Shown here: piece by piece, positions 4,273 to 63,725 of the stretch
Layout: each line of letters starts with the position of its first letter
How positions within the stretch are numbered: the first letter of the stretch is position 1
DNA from: a virus
Length of the DNA stretch: 64,000 nt
Virus record (IMG/VR): IMGVR_UViG_3300024581_002488
Coordinates: 3,064 to 67,063 of that record
Direction: 5' to 3' (one strand)
Program-made: the position numbers and the translations under genes
The notes under the pieces: generated by a model
Databases searched by the model: none
What the model saw: only the letters and a program-made list of their open reading frames with translations
Told to the model about the DNA's origin: nothing

Positions 4273-4518
4273 ATGAAATATGGCTTAGCAATTTTCGCAG
4301 ATGGGACAGTAGTAAAGCTGCCTCAGGTCTGCGGCATCACACCGATGGGTGTTAACAGCTGTCGTGTAGTCTTCCATGGAGGAGGTGAAATGCGTGTACC
4401 GTGTTCCGCTACTGACATGGCACACCACTTAGCTAGTTGGTTCGAGTCAATAGACTTGAGCCTTAAGCACAAACCTGCTAAAGGGGAGGGTACTGAAAAT
4501 GGACCAGAGAGAGATTAA
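4273..4518 (+). CDS. hypothetical protein
   Basis: GGAG RBS, coupled gene array. Confidence 0.75.
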   Translation: MKYGLAIFADGTVVKLPQVCGITPMGVNSCRVVFHGGGEMRVPCSATDMAHHLASWFESIDLSLKHKPAKGEGTENGPERD

Positions 4519-4738
4519 TAGACTTGCAGCGATGAATCGCGATGCATCCATGTTGGTGGGTGAAGAAAACGTGCGGTCGCTATTCGAAGAGCTCCAGCGT
4601 GTCAACACTGAGCAACTGTCAGAGCAGGCGAATAAGGCGATATGCCGTCCGTCGCAACCTGGTAAGCTCCGCAACAAACCGTGTCCGTGTGGAAGTGGAC
4701 TTAAGTTCAAGAAGTGCTGTATGAATAAGGAGCTCTGA
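4499..4738 (+). CDS. SEC-C motif zinc-binding protein
   Basis: C-terminal RNKPCPCGSGLKFKKCC is the canonical SEC-C motif. Confidence 0.85.
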   Translation: MDQREINRLAAMNRDASMLVGEENVRSLFEELQRVNTEQLSEQANKAICRPSQPGKLRNKPCPCGSGLKFKKCCMNKEL

Positions 4739-4739
4739 T

Positions 4740-4898
4740 ATGACAGACCAAGATTGGTTCGTGTTAGTTATGTGGGGCTGCACCTTTGGCTTGGTTGCAG
4801 CCGCTGCTATTATGGGTATCGCCATTGGTAGAGCGATGAATCGCATTAAGAAGGAAGCACTCCTTCGTCGACTGAAGCAGGAGAACAAAGATGGCTAA
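4740..4898 (+). CDS. 52-aa single-TM peptide
   Basis: MTDQDWFVLVMWGCTFGLVAAAAIMGIAIGRAMNRIKKEALLRRLKQENKDG; AAGGAG RBS. Confidence 0.7.
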   Translation: MTDQDWFVLVMWGCTFGLVAAAAIMGIAIGRAMNRIKKEALLRRLKQENKDG

Positions 4899-47543: not shown

Positions 47544-49637
47544 TTATTTACGGTATCGTATACCTTGCCATCCTTCAGCTGCAACTGGACAGCCTTTACC
47601 CCATGGCGGCAATGTAGCCATCAGTTCTTCAAACTCCTGGTAGCTGCCGACGCCTTCATCACATTCAGCCAACAATTCATCGTGTACTGATGCGATTACA
47701 TCATATGAGGTCTTAGCAATACCTCGAATTGCATAACCCATGAAGTCACGAGCGATAGCTTGCACCACGTTCTCCGTAAGCTTTCCGCCGTAGGTATCTG
47801 TACGAACCCACTTCTTGGTCATACCGTCGACACTCATATAAGTCAGTGCATCGGTCGTTCCACCCCAAGGGAGCGACTTCTTCTTGACTCTAGGGTCACG
47901 ATAATAAAGCACACGGCCACTCGGTAGCTTACATCGTAAGAAGCCGTTGCTGAACTTAAAGAGCAGCTTGTCGCCGCAACGAACAACCTTACCTTTGTTT
48001 TTAACCGCTCTAATAGCACACTTCTCGATGTTTGACCAAAAAGCTTTCACTTTAGCATAGCGGATACGGTAGGCATCTACTACTGTTTGAGCTAGTTCAT
48101 CAGAGATGACAGTATCATAAGAGTCGAATAGTGTGAATTGGAACTTACTCCAACCCATTTGGTATCCAAGACCTAGAATCGCTTGCTTACCCATACGACG
48201 CTCTTCACCTTCTTTGTCAATCTCGTGGTATTCTTTATGGTAGATTGAGCAGGCCATATCAATATAGATGTCTTTACCGCTGAAGAATACGTCAAGGCCT
48301 TTCTTGTCGTTAACCAGCCAGATAAGAACTCGTGCTTCAATGGACGAATAGTCAGCCACAATTAGTTCTTTACCAGGGGCGGCCATGATAGCACCACGCA
48401 AGGCACTTGATAGGACTTCCATAACTGATAGCTTAGGACTCCACATCATCTCAATGAGCTCACGGTCGCCAGTACGAATGATTTCAGCGGCTGCAAATGA
48501 GCCTTTAGGTTTAAGGCTACCACGAGGGAAGTTATGCGGCTGGATACCTTTACCTGTCCAACGACCTGTACCAGCGCCATGATACATCAGCATGTCTCGG
48601 ACTCGTTGGTCTGGGACGAGTTTGTCTCGCATGCCTTTATACTTAGCAGTCGAGGAGCGGTTGATGTCAATACACAGCTCTAGGACTCGCTTGACGTTAG
48701 CGTCTACAGTAGCCATGGCTTCTTCGTTCTTCAAGGCTCGTTTGATAGTCTTACCTTTGGTGTCAGGTAAGTTGAGAGTACTATTCTCGTTCACGTACTT
48801 CAGCAAAGCTTGTCGCTGAGTACCTGCTCGTAATTTACCACCTGATACTTCATACAGCTCTTTATTGAGAATTTCCGTTTGTTCGGTAATAATATCAAGG
48901 GCTTTGTTTACCATCTGCGCATCGAAATACACGCCGCGCCAGTTAATTTCTTGGTCTATGAGCCAGAGCTCAAGTTCTTCAGGAGGGAGAGGTGGAAGAG
49001 TGTTAGATAGAGCTTCTTCCGCAATAACATCCTGTTTGCAATAATCAAAGAGCCCTTGGAACATCTCTCTGCTTTCATGCCACAAGATGGGCCAGTCTTC
49101 TTCAAACGGTCCATATTGCATCGCCAGTTCTTTTTTCTGAAGTTTAGTAGGTTTACGAGGCTTACACATTTTAAGCATAAGCTTTTTACCATCAGCGCTT
49201 TTCTGTTTATCTACATTCATGCCTAGTGCGCGAGTTGCACCGTCAAGGTCGCGAGGGATGGCACACATAGCTGCACGGGACGCAGAGCATCGCCACTGGT
49301 CTGCAGGCATCTCAGGCCAACCGTATCTTTTGACCATGATGTTTGTCCAGACACATCGCTCAAAGAAGGCATTATGAGCTTCTACTTCAGCTCCGTTAGC
49401 AATATCATTGAATAGAGCATCAAGAGCAGCTTGAACCATCTCAGGCGGCTCGCCAGAGAGTTCACACTCTTCAATGCCTAAGTGTGGAAAGGCAGGATGC
49501 CATAGAAAGGCTTCTACATCGCCTGGCCATTTGAAAGCCATACACAATGCTTCAGTAGTACTATCAAGGCTGTACTTATAGCCTCCTGCTTTCTTGAGGT
49601 CACAGGTAGACCTAGTTTCGAAGTCGATAGTAATCAT
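47544..49637 (-). CDS. polA: DNA polymerase family A (Chi-like) with 3'-5' exonuclease
   Basis: IDFETRS, AHNAFFER, YCKQD, TGRWTG, ADYSSIEAR, RRMGKQAILGLGY, VHDE. Confidence 0.97.
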   Translation of the reverse strand: MITIDFETRSTCDLKKAGGYKYSLDSTTEALCMAFKWPGDVEAFLWHPAFPHLGIEECELSGEPPEMVQAALDALFNDIANGAEVEAHNAFFERCVWTNIMVKRYGWPEMPADQWRCSASRAAMCAIPRDLDGATRALGMNVDKQKSADGKKLMLKMCKPRKPTKLQKKELAMQYGPFEEDWPILWHESREMFQGLFDYCKQDVIAEEALSNTLPPLPPEELELWLIDQEINWRGVYFDAQMVNKALDIITEQTEILNKELYEVSGGKLRAGTQRQALLKYVNENSTLNLPDTKGKTIKRALKNEEAMATVDANVKRVLELCIDINRSSTAKYKGMRDKLVPDQRVRDMLMYHGAGTGRWTGKGIQPHNFPRGSLKPKGSFAAAEIIRTGDRELIEMMWSPKLSVMEVLSSALRGAIMAAPGKELIVADYSSIEARVLIWLVNDKKGLDVFFSGKDIYIDMACSIYHKEYHEIDKEGEERRMGKQAILGLGYQMGWSKFQFTLFDSYDTVISDELAQTVVDAYRIRYAKVKAFWSNIEKCAIRAVKNKGKVVRCGDKLLFKFSNGFLRCKLPSGRVLYYRDPRVKKKSLPWGGTTDALTYMSVDGMTKKWVRTDTYGGKLTENVVQAIARDFMGYAIRGIAKTSYDVIASVHDELLAECDEGVGSYQEFEELMATLPPWGKGCPVAAEGWQGIRYRK

Positions 49638-60978: not shown

Positions 60979-61485
60979 ATGACTCGTATCAATACACATG
61001 TTCCTATTATCGACGAACACCTTCGTGCTGCTCGCATTGAGTACTGCCGCATCCCTAACAGCGTGCTCAAGTATTTTGATGGCGATTGTATGGAAACCTT
61101 ACATCGCAAGTTGGCTCGTGAGCAACCTCTTCAATACACTGTTCGCACTAATGATAACCCGGCGGGCGGTAAAGGCCACATGCTGTTCTTCTTTGATAAG
61201 CTTATGTTTGTTGAGCAGCAATATCGTGCTGTCTTAGCCGAGTGCGGTCGTCGCGGTTTTGTCAACGATGATTGGTGGCCTTCTGACCGTATCAGCGACA
61301 TTCACCAATTCAACCGCGGTTGGCTTCCTAGCTATCCTGATATAACGCTTTGCAAGACTCGTCAAATTGAACGTATCCCTAAAAAGCCGCATATCTACGG
61401 CCTCCTTGTTACTCGCGAAGAAGCTGAGCTAGCCATAATCGCAGACCGATTACCACGTCGTATCATGGAAGCTATTCATGCGTAA
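60979..61485 (+). CDS. denV: pyrimidine-dimer DNA glycosylase / endonuclease V
   Basis: MTRIN N-terminus, DEHL...E..R, GKGHMLFFFDKL..V..Y.....EC.RRGF, aligned by eye to T4 DenV. Confidence 0.92.
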   Translation: MTRINTHVPIIDEHLRAARIEYCRIPNSVLKYFDGDCMETLHRKLAREQPLQYTVRTNDNPAGGKGHMLFFFDKLMFVEQQYRAVLAECGRRGFVNDDWWPSDRISDIHQFNRGWLPSYPDITLCKTRQIERIPKKPHIYGLLVTREEAELAIIADRLPRRIMEAIHA

Positions 61486-61984
61486 AAGAGTAAAGTGGAA
61501 GCCGCGGTTTAAAGTTGTACCAGGTTCGCAAGGTCGAATCTGGTACATGATTCAATACCAGCAAGGATACAATCCGTGTGAGCTTTATCCACACTACCGT
61601 TTCTATTGGGCTCATCAAGTTCGCTGGTTCATGAAGCTGGATGGTGACAGGCCGACGTACAAAAAGCAACAGCGGGACATGCTTAACTGGAATATTGGCT
61701 TCTTTCAACCTATGTATGGCTGGTATCGCTCTATTTGGGGGCGGGGCGAGCAGACTGATGACATATATGAAATCCAGCGAAGTTGGCCTGGACGCGGAAA
61801 AAGCCGACTACAGTTGATTGTTAATTTCTTGATAGACGAAGGATATGGTTATGCGAAAAGAGGAATCGTTTCCCCTATACTACTTCGGCCCTGCGGTCGA
61901 CCTAGACTTAGCGGACTTAGAAGCACGTTTAGTGAGCTTGCCGCAAGTGGAGAGCGCTGCAGCGAGTCAACAAGTGCACGATGA
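61478..61984 (+). CDS. hypothetical basic/aromatic protein
   Basis: Coupled to denV; 3' end overlaps the next gene. Confidence 0.65.
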   Translation: MRKRVKWKPRFKVVPGSQGRIWYMIQYQQGYNPCELYPHYRFYWAHQVRWFMKLDGDRPTYKKQQRDMLNWNIGFFQPMYGWYRSIWGRGEQTDDIYEIQRSWPGRGKSRLQLIVNFLIDEGYGYAKRGIVSPILLRPCGRPRLSGLRSTFSELAASGERCSESTSAR

Positions 61985-62357
61985 GCTTGTAATGGCAGTC
62001 AAAGGCTGCGATGCTATTGACCCGAACGAACTCGGCGACGCTATTGAGGAGCTGATAAAAACGATGCAAGCCGAGAAGCAGAAACGCAAGAAACGAATCG
62101 TGGTTTTAGGAGCTGGACCTGTTGCGATGCAAGCGGCTCTTAAGTCTTTAGAAGGCCGAGCCGATATTATATACGCTTGTGATGATAAGATAGCTGAACT
62201 TAAAGCTCCTGCGAATCTTCAATTAGACCGGTATATTGAAGCTTTGGACGAGCTGCCTTTTGAAGACTTTGATGTTACCAGTGCACACCTCAATTACGAA
62301 GAGAAGCAGAAGCTGATGACTAAAGGCTGTCGAAGTAAACGGCGTCGGAAGTGGTGA
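61851..62357 (+). CDS. hypothetical protein with PolA-like and Rossmann-like motif fragments
   Basis: DLADLEARLV, QVHDELV, RIVVLGAGPVAMQAAL; AAGGA RBS. Confidence 0.7.
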   Translation: MRKEESFPLYYFGPAVDLDLADLEARLVSLPQVESAAASQQVHDELVMAVKGCDAIDPNELGDAIEELIKTMQAEKQKRKKRIVVLGAGPVAMQAALKSLEGRADIIYACDDKIAELKAPANLQLDRYIEALDELPFEDFDVTSAHLNYEEKQKLMTKGCRSKRRRKW

Positions 62358-62377: not shown

Positions 62378-62401
62378 AGCGTCTTTCGGGACGCTTTTTT
62401 A
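62378..62401 (+). terminator. rho-independent terminator
   Basis: AGCGTC-TTTCGG-GACGCT followed by a T-tract. Confidence 0.85.
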
Positions 62402-62447: not shown

Positions 62448-62636
62448 ATGCTTTTTGATAATCAAGTTGAACACGAGTTAGACATCATTGACGCTGAAGA
62501 AGCTCGACAACAGCAAGAACAAGCTTTGCTAGATGCTGAACTTGGTCTTGATACCTTAGAAGCCGGAGACCTGTTAGACGACCTGGCTTTCCTAGAAGAT
62601 ATGGGTATCGACCCTATGGATGCATTCGAGGTATAG
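62448..62636 (+). CDS. small highly acidic protein
   Basis: AAGGAGG RBS; D/E-rich 62 aa. Confidence 0.8.
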   Translation: MLFDNQVEHELDIIDAEEARQQQEQALLDAELGLDTLEAGDLLDDLAFLEDMGIDPMDAFEV

Positions 62637-62637
62637 A

Positions 62638-63198
62638 ATGGATAAACGAATTACATTTGAAGCCCTTAGTAAACGTAAGGGCACTATTGAACCTATTCTT
62701 GCAGGTACGGTCACTGGGCGCCTTGGGGCGTCTAAACCTGAGCTTCAAAATTTGCTCCCTAAACCTATGGATACTCGTCGACTAAAAGACCGCAGAACGT
62801 GTGAGCCTAAGATTGTAATAGGCCCTCGCCATGAATGGGTGCGAACTCGCTGGCCGGATTCTCCTGCCGATTTAGGCGCTTCTATTCATCAACAAATAGA
62901 CCGTGTACTTCGACACCAAGACCATGAGTTGGCGAAAGCTATCTTGTTTGGTAACTGGGATAACGAGCCTAAAGTGAATCAAGTCCATGATAGCCTTATC
63001 GTAGACGAACACGACTGGGATGCGATGAAAGAGTATTGTGAAATGGACATTATGGCTACTGAGCAAGCTCTGAAGTCTACTAAGCAAATCATGGCCGCGA
63101 TGGAAGACACTTTAGAGCTTGACCTCTTTGGCTCCGACGAGCCTGAATACAATGGTGACGATTTGATGGCAGCCGTTAGAAGTTTCTGTCGTCGATAA
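62638..63198 (+). CDS. hypothetical protein with scrambled PolA-like motif fragments
   Basis: GTVTGRLGASKPELQNL, AKAILFG, QVHDSLIV, EYCEMDIMATE; GAGGT RBS. Confidence 0.75.
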   Translation: MDKRITFEALSKRKGTIEPILAGTVTGRLGASKPELQNLLPKPMDTRRLKDRRTCEPKIVIGPRHEWVRTRWPDSPADLGASIHQQIDRVLRHQDHELAKAILFGNWDNEPKVNQVHDSLIVDEHDWDAMKEYCEMDIMATEQALKSTKQIMAAMEDTLELDLFGSDEPEYNGDDLMAAVRSFCRR

Positions 63199-63282: not shown

Positions 63283-63390
63283 ATGGCTAAACAATCAATG
63301 CATACCTCTAAACATCTTTCAAAAGCTAAACGTGCCAAGCGATTAGCTCGCAAAAGCAAGGAGCGTTATGTCAAGCATTATTGTAATTAG
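63283..63390 (+). CDS. 35-aa basic peptide
   Basis: MAKQSMHTSKHLSKAKRAKRLARKSKERYVKHYCN; AAGGAG RBS. Confidence 0.65.
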   Translation: MAKQSMHTSKHLSKAKRAKRLARKSKERYVKHYCN

Positions 63391-63598
63391 TCTGGTTGCC
63401 GCATTTACCTGGCGTGTCGTTGAGTTATGGCGATACGCTCAGGTGGAGCGAGAAATCTATCAGCAACACTCAGATTTTCTACTAAACCAGCTCAAAAGGA
63501 AGCGTGCCAATGTTTACATTGACAATTCTAGCAATAGTTCTAACGCCTTGCGTTCTTCTAGCAAAAGCTTTACAGTGGGAACGCCAGCGCAACCGTGA
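63368..63598 (+). CDS. single-TM hypothetical protein
   Basis: AAGGAG RBS; N-terminal hydrophobic helix. Confidence 0.65.
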   Translation: MSSIIVISLVAAFTWRVVELWRYAQVEREIYQQHSDFLLNQLKRKRANVYIDNSSNSSNALRSSSKSFTVGTPAQP

Positions 63599-63725
63599 TA
63601 AAGGCGTGCCAAACCTGGAACACATTCCCCTGGTTCTAGGTTATCATATGCACAAAGCGAACGGGCAATACCGATACGATAAGTATAAGGCTAAGTACGA
63701 CGCTATTAAATTCACCGAGGAGTGA
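63510..63725 (+). CDS. single-TM hypothetical protein
   Basis: AAGGAAG RBS; N-terminal hydrophobic helix. Confidence 0.6.
   Translation: MFTLTILAIVLTPCVLLAKALQWERQRNRDKGVPNLEHIPLVLGYHMHKANGQYRYDKYKAKYDAIKFTEE

What the first reader, a model, noticed from the sequence alone, without database searches (positions are those of the whole stretch)
62638..63198. 186-aa early protein built from scrambled DNA-polymerase-A signature motifs
In order it contains GTVTGRLGASKPELQNL (PolA TGRLSS.xPNLQN motif), LAKAILFG (motif B-like, running into GNWD like the terminase AWLEGSWD), NQVHDSLIV (motif C) and KEYCEMDIMATEQAL (Exo III-like; compare this phage's own pol FDYCKQDVIAEEAL). Exo III comes after motif C, the reverse of real PolA, motif A is missing, and the spacers are far too short to fold a polymerase. 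The TGRL-type motif resembles host or T7-type PolA more than this phage's TGRWTG. Inference: a mosaic of conserved replication/packaging epitopes, perhaps a decoy for host pattern-recognition defences (Avs-type sensors recognise conserved phage proteins) or a product of illegitimate recombination.
Basis: partly seen in the sequence, partly recalled or inferred. Interest (0 to 1): 0.72.

Follow-up and report, generated by a model that had tools for sequence, protein, structure and literature searches.

The report
Small phage protein from polymerase-gene scraps
A fast-evolving 186-residue early gene of an uncultivated 75-kb phage keeps short, out-of-order pieces of a Pol I-type DNA polymerase gene but cannot be a polymerase. 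It is most likely a reused gene remnant, not a purpose-built decoy.

Summary
The ORF (window 62638-63198, +, 186 aa) is real and reads as quoted.

**PolA likeness, by block:**
- The TGRL block is beyond chance: 0/3000 shuffles, and E=6.8e-4 in a six-frame scan of the genome.
- The motif-C block is supported at p about 2e-4 to 3e-3.
- The Exo III block plus the helix after it is supported: phrog_403 is matched by all 5 family members, best E=1.3e-4.
- The "motif B" and terminase "GNWD" likenesses are not above chance.

The supported blocks are in non-native order (TGRL, motif C, Exo III). TGRL is Pol I-type, unlike the phage's own PolA.

**The gene itself:**
- Only four homologues exist in about 15 billion proteins. 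All sit in the same slot, just after a conserved 62-aa acidic gene.
- It is under purifying selection (omega about 0.15-0.26), yet it is the fastest-evolving gene in its neighbourhood.
- Sister phages have lost the TGRL and motif-C blocks. The motif-C block is flanked by 8-bp direct repeats. So those motifs are not what selection keeps.
- It lacks Exo I and II, the motif A aspartate and the fingers subdomain. AlphaFold confidence is low, with no fold match.

**Verdict:** a non-catalytic, chimeric remnant of a PolA gene, reused as an early protein that probably acts by binding. The decoy idea is untested and somewhat disfavoured.

The parts
62638..63198 (+). ORF of 186 aa (P0001), including the stop. 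This is the PolA-vestige early protein.
   Evidence: Four syntenic homologues. omega 0.15-0.26.
62698..62769 (+). Residues 21-44: Pol I-type 'TGRL...P.LQN' block, from the thumb/palm junction of the pol domain. It lies in a basic N-terminal part that is predicted disordered.
   Evidence: pLDDT is about 30. Eroded or deleted in P0003-P0005.
62821..62958 (+). Residues 62-107: the most conserved family-specific stretch (GP..EWVR.RWP.SP.DLG ... DHE..K..L.GN). It includes the weak motif A-like and motif B-like strings.
   Evidence: Invariant columns. PolA likeness here is not significant.
62954..62961 (+). First copy of the 8-nt direct repeat ACTGGGAT, flanking the motif-C block.
62959..63018 (+). 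Residues 108-127: the motif-C-like block (NQVHDSLIV). It is absent from the short forms P0004 and P0005.
63014..63021 (+). Second copy of the direct repeat ACTGGGAT. The short forms keep a single copy (AAC TGG GAC in L001/P0005; no DNA was held for P0004), as expected after slippage deletion.
63016..63123 (+). Residues 127-162: Exo III-like motif (YC..D) within a long predicted helix, plus a following stretch that resembles the exo-pol linker of PolA. Y133 and D137 are invariant.
   Evidence: Helix.
63124..63195 (+). Residues 163-186: a variable acidic linker and an invariant C-terminal helix (GDDLMAAVRSFC).
62448..62636 (+). A 62-aa, very acidic (pI 4.05), highly conserved ORF. Its stop is 1 nt before the P0001 start. 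It is adjacent to the P0001 gene in every genome that carries it.
62378..62395 (+). Terminator-like hairpin followed by a T run, between the upstream gene (61845-62357) and the acidic-ORF/P0001 pair.
   Evidence: a consensus match only.

Best explanation
P0001 is a real, translated, fast-evolving early gene. Its product is a non-catalytic chimera of leftovers from a Pol I-type family A DNA polymerase gene, which is not the phage's own replicative PolA.

**Pieces, in order:**
- A thumb/palm 'TGRL' piece in a basic, disordered N-terminus.
- A motif-C hairpin piece.
- The Exo III helix with the exo-pol linker, in an acidic, helical C-terminal half.

**Shown:** the likeness to PolA, the non-native order, purifying selection, and the loss of the pol-type blocks in sister phages.

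**Inferred:**
- The pieces were joined by illegitimate recombination or serial deletion. The simplest route is a junction across two tandem PolA copies, which gives the order TGRL-(A/B)-C then Exo III.
- The remnant was kept for a new role that rests on the conserved middle stretch, the Exo III-like helix and the C-terminal helix.
- That role is binding a protein or DNA partner early in infection, not catalysis. The neighbouring acidic 62-aa protein, made from the same coupled message, is a candidate partner.
For: **PolA likeness from unbiased libraries**
- Pfam DNA_pol_A E=0.0086.
- phrog_17 E=5e-4, best in family 9e-5; phrog_403 in 5/5 members, best E=1.3e-4.
- Pol nu is the top PDB hit.
- The nearest ESM Atlas clusters are short viral PolA-domain proteins. 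Scores of 0.87-0.89 make this a lead only.

**Own tests**
- Full PolA HMM: 14.8 bits, 0/3000 shuffles.
- Exo HMM on residues 45-186: 2/3000. On P0005, which lacks TGRL and motif C: 2/3000.
- Exo-C HMM: 9.7-10.4 bits, reached by 2/3000 shuffles (P0001) and 0/3000 (P0005).
- Motif C PSSM p=2e-4. hhalign P=2.9e-5 for TGRL and 0.0021 for motif C.
- The ORF is the only non-PolA frame in the genome with a notable PolA score.
- None of 26 related phage genomes has any extra PF00476 hit at E<=1.

**Foreign type**
- TGRL shares 12/23 residues with Pol I-like PolAs, against 6-7/23 with the own lineage.
- There is no DNA likeness to the phage's own polA.

**A real gene**
- omega is 0.15-0.26, and the frame is intact in 5 genomes despite indels.
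- It has a Shine-Dalgarno site and a 1-nt gap to the upstream gene, conserved in all genomes.

**Not catalytic**
- 186 aa, with no Exo I or II, Ser at the motif A Asp position, and no fingers.

**The pol motifs are dispensable**
- The block deletions are in-frame, and the motif-C block is flanked by 8-bp repeats.
- omega is about 0.4 in the N-terminal 60 residues, against 0.05-0.25 in the C-terminal part.
Against: - Each likeness covers only 15-60 residues, and every score is far below the family cut-offs.
- Shuffled sequences are a lenient null for helical segments.
- The five family members are close kin, so their matches are not independent.
- hhalign offers a rival colinear alignment and gives the Exo III alignment only P=0.13.
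- The pairwise Exo III match to the phage's own PolA is not significant (67/1000 shuffles).
- No longer intermediate form was found in about 15 billion proteins.
- The direction of the indels is inferred, because the tree is unrooted.
- dS is near saturation, so omega values are rough.
- Both AlphaFold models are of low confidence (pLDDT 49 and 60), so neither fold nor disorder is established.
- No partner or activity is shown.
Confidence: 0.55

Rival explanations
1. It is a colinear, internally deleted relic of the polymerase domain only: TGRL, degenerate motif A, motif B, motif C, then the C-terminal palm helix. The fingers and spacers are deleted, the Exo III likeness is a coincidence, and nothing is scrambled.
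For: - hhalign places 115-162 on motif C plus the helix after it (P=0.0021), treating the Exo III-like 15 residues as an insert.
- The Pol nu alignment runs colinearly through TGRL, an A-like stretch and motif C.
- The Pfam HMM hits profile positions 113-141 and 330-362 in order.
- 'AKAILFG' matches E. coli 'AKAINFG' at 6 of 7 residues.
Against: - phrog_403 (exonuclease subunit) is matched by all five members, best E=1.3e-4.
- The exo-C HMM gives p<=7e-4, including in P0005, which has no pol-type block.
- The HMM of the phage's own PolA lineage picks Exo III as the best hit in all five members.
- The motif A/B region is not significant.
Confidence: 0.12
2. It is a functional mimic or decoy. 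The protein displays PolA surface elements, above all the proofreading-cleft Exo III helix, to occupy or blunt a host defence that senses phage DNA polymerase. Its PolA origin would be the means to that end.
For: - Defence systems that sense phage PolA exist: Borvo escape mutations map to the proofreading cleft (bioRxiv 10.1101/2022.08.27.505566).
- The gene sits among early genes and is a local divergence hot-spot: dN is 0.2 against 0.007-0.07 in most flanking genes (two small adjacent ORFs also diverge, dN 0.07-0.35), and DNA identity is 53-88% against 90-100% in the immediately adjacent DNA. This is typical of arms-race genes.
- The Exo III Tyr and Asp are invariant.
Against: - Two of the three PolA-like blocks are eroded or deleted in natural variants that keep the gene.
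- The TGRL region is the least constrained.
- No defence or anti-defence family was matched in Pfam or PHROGs; PADLOC was not searched.
- The host and its defences are unknown.
- One helix out of a five-motif active site is a poor structural mimic.
Confidence: 0.1
3. It is an unrelated orphan early protein, and its PolA-like strings are chance or convergence.
For: - All scores are below the curated cut-offs.
- The exhaustive sequence search links it to no PolA.
- There is no fold match.
Against: - Library-wide E-values reach 9e-5 to 5e-4 for two different PolA parts in two different segments.
- The genome-wide six-frame E is 6.8e-4.
- There are zero comparable hits in 26 related genomes.
- The shuffle tests agree.
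Confidence: 0.1
4. It is a dying pseudogene remnant with no function of its own, kept open only by chance or by translational coupling to its neighbours.
For: It is the fastest-evolving gene in its neighbourhood, with several indels and low predicted order.
Against: - omega is 0.15-0.26 while dS is about 1, so amino-acid changes are clearly selected against.
- All indels are in-frame, and the frame is intact in five diverged genomes.
Confidence: 0.05

Closest known systems
Family A DNA polymerases (E. coli Pol I Klenow fragment, Pol nu PDB 4xvi; Pfam PF00476 with the PF01612-type 3'-5' exonuclease)
   Same: P0001 has a TGRL...P.LQN block, a QVHD-type motif C block, and an Exo III Y...D helix followed by a linker-like helix. 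All three are detected by profiles.
   Different: - It is 186 aa, against 600 or more.
- The order is TGRL, C, Exo III rather than Exo III, TGRL, C.
- It has no Exo I or II, no motif A Asp and no fingers.
- The motif C Glu is Ser.
- It scores 15.5 bits against a 34.3-bit cut-off.
- No polymerase fold is predicted.
Split or truncated phage PolAs: 'DNA polymerase exonuclease subunit' (phrog_403), and the exo/pol gene fission in T7-like S-SBP1 phages (Czernecki et al. 2023, PMC10201439)
   Same: These are small phage ORFs that carry only part of a PolA. phrog_403 is matched by all five family members.
   Different: - Split PolAs are colinear halves that together make a complete enzyme and sit in the replication module.
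- Here only about 22 of 321 profile positions match.
- The pieces are out of order.
- The phage already has a complete PolA of another lineage.
- The gene lies among early genes.
The phage's own replicative PolA (window 47544-49637, - strand; PaMx74/Xp12-like lineage)
   Same: The Exo III string has the same pattern, YC..D[IV].A.E.AL.
   Different: - The own enzyme has TGRWTG...QPHNFP and SVHDEL, not TGRL...LQN and QVHD.
- There is no DNA similarity.
- So this is not a recent internal duplication.
The neighbouring gene at window 61845-62357 (P0129)
   Same: It holds the only other 'QVHD' in the six-frame translation of the genome (QQVHDELV). It is the third-best PolA HMM score in the genome (E 0.17-0.29). 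hhalign of the two families gives P=0.0085 over the motif-C block.
   Different: It has no TGRL or Exo III likeness, it carries a Rossmann-like GxGxxA string, and it is much better conserved at 77-80% identity.

Membership tests
Family A DNA polymerase (PF00476) | Reaches the Pfam gathering score over the polymerase domain. | tested here: not met
   15.5 bits against 34.3, and only residues 22-49 match. A second fragment scores 1.9 bits.
Family A DNA polymerase (PF00476) | Motif A with the catalytic Asp (D[YF]SQIELR). | tested here: not met
   The aligned position is Ser82. The motif A PSSM is not significant at that site.
Family A DNA polymerase (PF00476) | Motif B O-helix (R..K...F...Y) in a fingers subdomain. 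| tested here: not met
   'ELAKAILFGNWD' keeps K and F but lacks R and Y. PSSM p=0.53. Only 18 residues separate the A-like and B-like strings.
Family A DNA polymerase (PF00476) | Motif C (VHDE) with the catalytic Asp. | tested here: inconclusive
   QVHDS is present in 3 of 5 members, with Glu replaced by Ser (p=2e-4 to 3e-3). The block is absent from P0004 and P0005.
DnaQ-like 3'-5' exonuclease domain of PolA (PF01612 / phrog_403) | Exo I (DxE), Exo II (N..[FY]D) and Exo III (Y...D), in that order. | tested here: not met
   Only Exo III is present, with Y133 and D137 invariant. The Exo I and II PSSMs are not significant.
Split-PolA subunit | A complementary gene supplies the rest of the enzyme, colinear and nearby. 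| tested here: not met
   The six-frame genome scan finds only the complete own PolA, this ORF, and a weak motif-C string in P0129.
Anti-defence decoy or mimic of a sensed phage protein | The mimicked element is conserved in all members. | tested here: not met
   The TGRL and motif-C blocks are eroded or deleted in P0003-P0005. Only the Exo III-like helix is invariant.
Anti-defence decoy or mimic of a sensed phage protein | Binds or blocks a host sensor, and changes the phage's sensitivity to a defence system. | not testable with these tools

The most novel reading that the evidence does not exclude
Phages can recycle scraps of a polymerase gene into a small early protein that mimics the proofreading-cleft helix of PolA and so blinds, or competes for, a host factor or immune sensor that recognises phage DNA polymerases. 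Together with the neighbouring motif-C-bearing gene, this would be a small family of 'polymerase-mimic' counter-defence proteins.
Probability: 0.1. Interest if true: 0.8.

Novelty: new variant of a known kind. Interest (0 to 1): 0.4.

Why it matters
Partial, split and permuted family A polymerase genes are known in phages, but they still make a polymerase. This gene seems to be a different outcome. Fragments of a foreign Pol I-type gene, joined in the wrong order, are kept under purifying selection as a small non-enzymatic early protein, while its polymerase motifs are being shed in sister phages.

If that reading is right, it is a clear natural case of an orphan gene born from the wreck of an essential enzyme gene. 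It would also give a dated series of intermediates: long forms, a degenerate form, and deleted forms.

It is also a caution for annotation. Motif-level hits to DNA_pol_A in small phage ORFs need not mean a polymerase.

The practical weight is modest unless the protein turns out to interact with replication or defence machinery.

Tried and rejected
- **Searches for more relatives found none beyond the four homologues.** Tried: tblastn and megablast against 50,697 phage records; pattern scans of IMG/VR and JGI metagenomes with the family alignment; and the exhaustive phmmer search. The one extra hit of that search, P0007, is a spurious match to Listeria-Bacteroides repeats.
- **E. coli Pol I homologue search** returned only sequences of 94% identity or more and was useless for a profile. 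I replaced it with PolAs taken from the 80 IMG/VR loci (78 were long enough to use).
- **Complex prediction of P0001 with the acidic 62-aa neighbour** gave no verdict (score 0.00, controls not run). This is not evidence either way.
- **The look-up of sequencing runs** listed no RNA holder and only small-share DNA rows, so it says nothing about expression or habitat.
- **AlphaFold2** of the long form (pLDDT 48.9) and the short form (pLDDT 60.5) gave low-confidence, mostly helical models. Foldseek against the PDB found nothing at E<=0.001.
- **DUF7939**, the top Pfam row, is matched by one member only and was dismissed.
- **Exo II reading of 'NQVHD'** is not supported by the PSSM.
- **A beta-clamp-binding reading of 'ELDLF'** was considered and dropped, because the Phe is not conserved in P0002 and P0003.
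- **A shared intergenic motif, TTATTAAGC,** is at chance level.
- **More distant relatives' contigs** start just downstream of the early region and are not held for further reading. So the syntenic slot in them could not be inspected.

Full report
**What is there**

Window 62638-63198 (+) is an ORF of 186 codons. GAGG lies 6 nt before its ATG. Its start sits 1 nt after the stop of a 62-aa, very acidic ORF (62448-62636). A terminator-like hairpin (62378-62395) precedes the pair.

The genome is a 75,257-bp siphovirus record. It has a tape measure and tail genes. Its replication module, on the other strand, holds PrimPol/VapE-like, DUF2800, SNF2 and a complete 697-aa PolA. That PolA is less than 50% identical to those of PaMx74-, Xoo-sp2- and Xp12-like phages.

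**The family**

In about 15 billion proteins there are four homologues, 59-67% identical by BLASTP (63-72% over the alignment columns). None was found in the phage, IMG/VR or JGI scans. All sit in the same slot: after the 62-aa acidic gene with a 1-nt gap, and before a 35-aa ORF, in the early-looking block next to PrimPol.

The alignment shows three indel blocks.
- Residues 11-32, which hold the TGRL string, are deleted in P0005 and degenerate in P0004. P0003 has G to W.
- Residues 45-55 are absent in P0004 and P0005.
- Residues 108-127, which hold NQVHDSLIV, are absent in P0004 and P0005.

The invariant parts lie elsewhere: GP..EWVR.RWP.SP.DLG, DHE..K..L.GN, WDA..EYC..D..AT..AL, IMAAMEDTL.LD and GDDLMAAVRSFC.

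**Is the PolA likeness more than chance?**

*Unbiased libraries*
- Pfam DNA_pol_A: E=0.0086, residues 22-49, 15.5 bits against a 34.3-bit cut-off.
- phrog_17 'DNA polymerase': E=5e-4, and 9e-5 in another member.
- phrog_403 'DNA polymerase exonuclease subunit': E=0.012 for residues 123-144. It is matched by all five members, best E=1.3e-4.
- The top PDB chain is Pol nu, E=0.052.

*My own HMM.* I built it from 80 PolA sequences: 78 Pol I-like viral ones plus E. coli Pol I and the phage's own PolA.
- P0001 scores 14.8 bits, against at most 6.8 in 3000 shuffles.
- In a six-frame scan of the whole genome the ORF ranks second, after the real PolA, with E=6.8e-4.

*Split tests*
- The N-terminal 60 residues against the pol HMM give 14.3 bits, 0/3000 shuffles.
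- Residues 45-186 against the exo HMM are reached by 2/3000 shuffles, and against the post-TGRL pol HMM by 10/3000. For P0002 the last figure is 0/3000.
- P0005, which has neither pol-type block, still matches the exo HMM, 2/3000.
- An HMM of the exo C-terminal part (Exo III and linker) gives 9.7 bits for P0001 (2/3000) and 10.4 bits for P0005 (0/3000).

*Other tests*
- An ungapped PSSM test gives TGRL p=0.0005, motif C p=0.0002, Exo III p=0.02, and motif B p=0.53.
- hhalign of the family against the PolA alignment gives TGRL P=2.9e-5, motif C plus the following helix P=0.0021, and Exo III P=0.13.
- Against an HMM of 121 PolAs of the phage's own lineage, the best hit of all five members is Exo III, p about 5e-4 to 2.4e-3.

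*Empirical control.* In 26 related phage genomes, no PF00476 hit at E<=1 falls outside the true polymerase gene. The own genome has two such hits, both in this ORF.

*Conclusion.* TGRL is solid. Motif C and Exo III are each moderately supported. Motif B and the terminase 'G[NS]WD' likeness are not supported.

**Order and type**

The supported blocks run TGRL (about residue 26), motif C (about 116), Exo III (about 133). No PolA has this order, because Exo III is N-terminal to the pol domain.

TGRL is Pol I-type: 12/23 residues identical to Pol I-like viral PolAs, against 6-7/23 for the own lineage. The own enzyme reads TGRWTG...QPHNFP. There is no DNA similarity to the phage's own polA.

A colinear alternative exists. 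It reads TGRL, weak A, weak B, C, then the C-terminal palm helix, with Exo III as a chance insert. It must dismiss the phrog_403 and exo HMM results, so I give it 0.12.

A single junction across two tandem PolA copies, followed by internal deletions, would give the observed order. This is inference only.

**Is it a working gene?**
- Nei-Gojobori omega is 0.15-0.26 over all pairs. It is about 0.4 in residues 1-60, 0.13 in the motif-C block where that is present, and 0.05-0.25 in the C-terminal 60 residues. dS is about 0.9-1.7, so the values are rough.
- All indels are in-frame.
- The gene is a local divergence hot-spot. DNA identity to L004 and L002 falls to 53-88% inside it, against 90-100% in the DNA immediately on either side (a second, smaller dip lies at about 63352-63590). 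dN is about 0.2, against 0.007-0.07 in most neighbouring genes. Two small adjacent ORFs (63368-63598 and 63504-63725) also diverge, with dN 0.07-0.35. The acidic upstream gene is 95-100% identical in the same genomes.
- The motif-C block is flanked in every long form by the 8-nt direct repeat ACTGGGA[T/C] (window 62954-62961 and 63014-63021). The short form whose DNA was read (L001, P0005) keeps one copy. This fits slippage deletion. An insertion with a target duplication cannot be excluded, because the tree is unrooted. But the degenerate TGRL of P0004 and its deletion in P0005 show that the trend in that clade is loss.

**What it cannot be, and what it may be**

With 186 residues, no Exo I or II, Ser at the motif A Asp position, no fingers, and Ser for the motif C Glu, it cannot polymerise or proofread.

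AlphaFold2 gives pLDDT 48.9 for the long form. Residues 1-73 score about 30, and the rest is helical, with a long helix at 124-162 that carries the Exo III string. The short form scores 60.5 and is all-helical. Foldseek finds no PDB match.

The N-terminal 110 residues are basic (pI 9.8) and the C-terminal 76 are acidic (pI 4.2).

The ESM Atlas feature search points to clusters of short viral proteins with PolA domains, but with scores under 0.9. That is a lead only.

My best reading, at 0.55, is a reused chimeric remnant of a foreign PolA gene that acts by binding, not catalysis. Its selected function resides in the conserved middle stretch, the Exo III-like helix and the C-terminal helix.

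**The decoy idea**

Sensors of phage PolA do exist. Borvo escape mutations map to the proofreading cleft (bioRxiv 10.1101/2022.08.27.505566). The gene's fast evolution and early position would also suit an arms-race protein.

Against this, two of the three PolA-like blocks are dispensable in nature, and nothing links the protein to a defence system. I give the idea about 0.1 and keep it as the novel case.

**Context from the scan**

I met it independently. It is the third-best PolA HMM score in the genome (E 0.17-0.29) and holds the only other 'QVHD' in the six-frame translation. hhalign of the two families gives P=0.0085 over the motif-C block. Its claimed motif A likeness was not supported by my PSSM, p=0.59.

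Other notes of the scan describe split and permuted PolAs in other phages. Those still encode complete enzymes, unlike this case.

**Limits**
- The family is small and closely related.
- The matches are short.
- Shuffles are a lenient null.
- dS is saturated.
- The models are of low confidence.
- The host is unknown, and there are no expression data.

Noticed in passing
window 61845-62357 (+), P0129: This 170-aa gene holds 'QQVHDELV', the only other QVHD in the genome's six-frame translation and the third-best PolA HMM score. It is followed by a Lys/Arg-rich linker and a Rossmann-like 'VVLGAGPVAM'. It is 77-80% identical in two relatives. Its claimed motif A likeness was not supported by my PSSM.
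   Followed up: partly
window 62448-62636 (+): This 62-aa protein is very acidic (20 D+E, 1 K+R; pI 4.05) and 77-100% identical among relatives. It is always placed 1 nt upstream of the P0001 gene. It could be a partner of P0001 or a DNA mimic. The complex prediction gave no verdict.
   Followed up: partly
window 60979-61485 (+): A T4 endonuclease V-type pyrimidine-dimer glycosylase (phrog_1183, E=2.5e-18) lies among the early genes.
   Followed up: no
window 61478-61984 (+) versus 61845-62357 (+): A 168-codon ORF overlaps the start of P0129 by about 140 nt in another frame. In relative L001 the gene called at the start of this slot is only 121 aa (4495-4860). So the long overlap here may be read-through of a shorter gene, not true double coding.
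   Followed up: no
window 63352-63590 (+): A second local dip in DNA identity to the relatives (72-75%) lies just downstream, over the small ORFs 63368-63598 and 63504-63725, which overlap in two frames. It is unclear which of them is the real gene.
   Followed up: no
L001:2707-3051 (relative contig ERZ650152 NODE_279): The relative carries an HNH_3 homing-endonuclease-type gene in its early block. No large early-block ORF of the window that I scanned gave such a hit (not searched for directly). This suggests mobile-gene traffic in the region.
   Followed up: no
L093/L094/L095 (IMGVR_UViG_3300030397_000385) versus L002 (same sample 3300030397): One sample holds a contig with PrimPol and PolA 96% identical to the window's. 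It also holds a separate contig whose P0001 homologue is only 63% identical. This points to either two co-occurring related phages or strong mosaicism at the early region.
   Followed up: no
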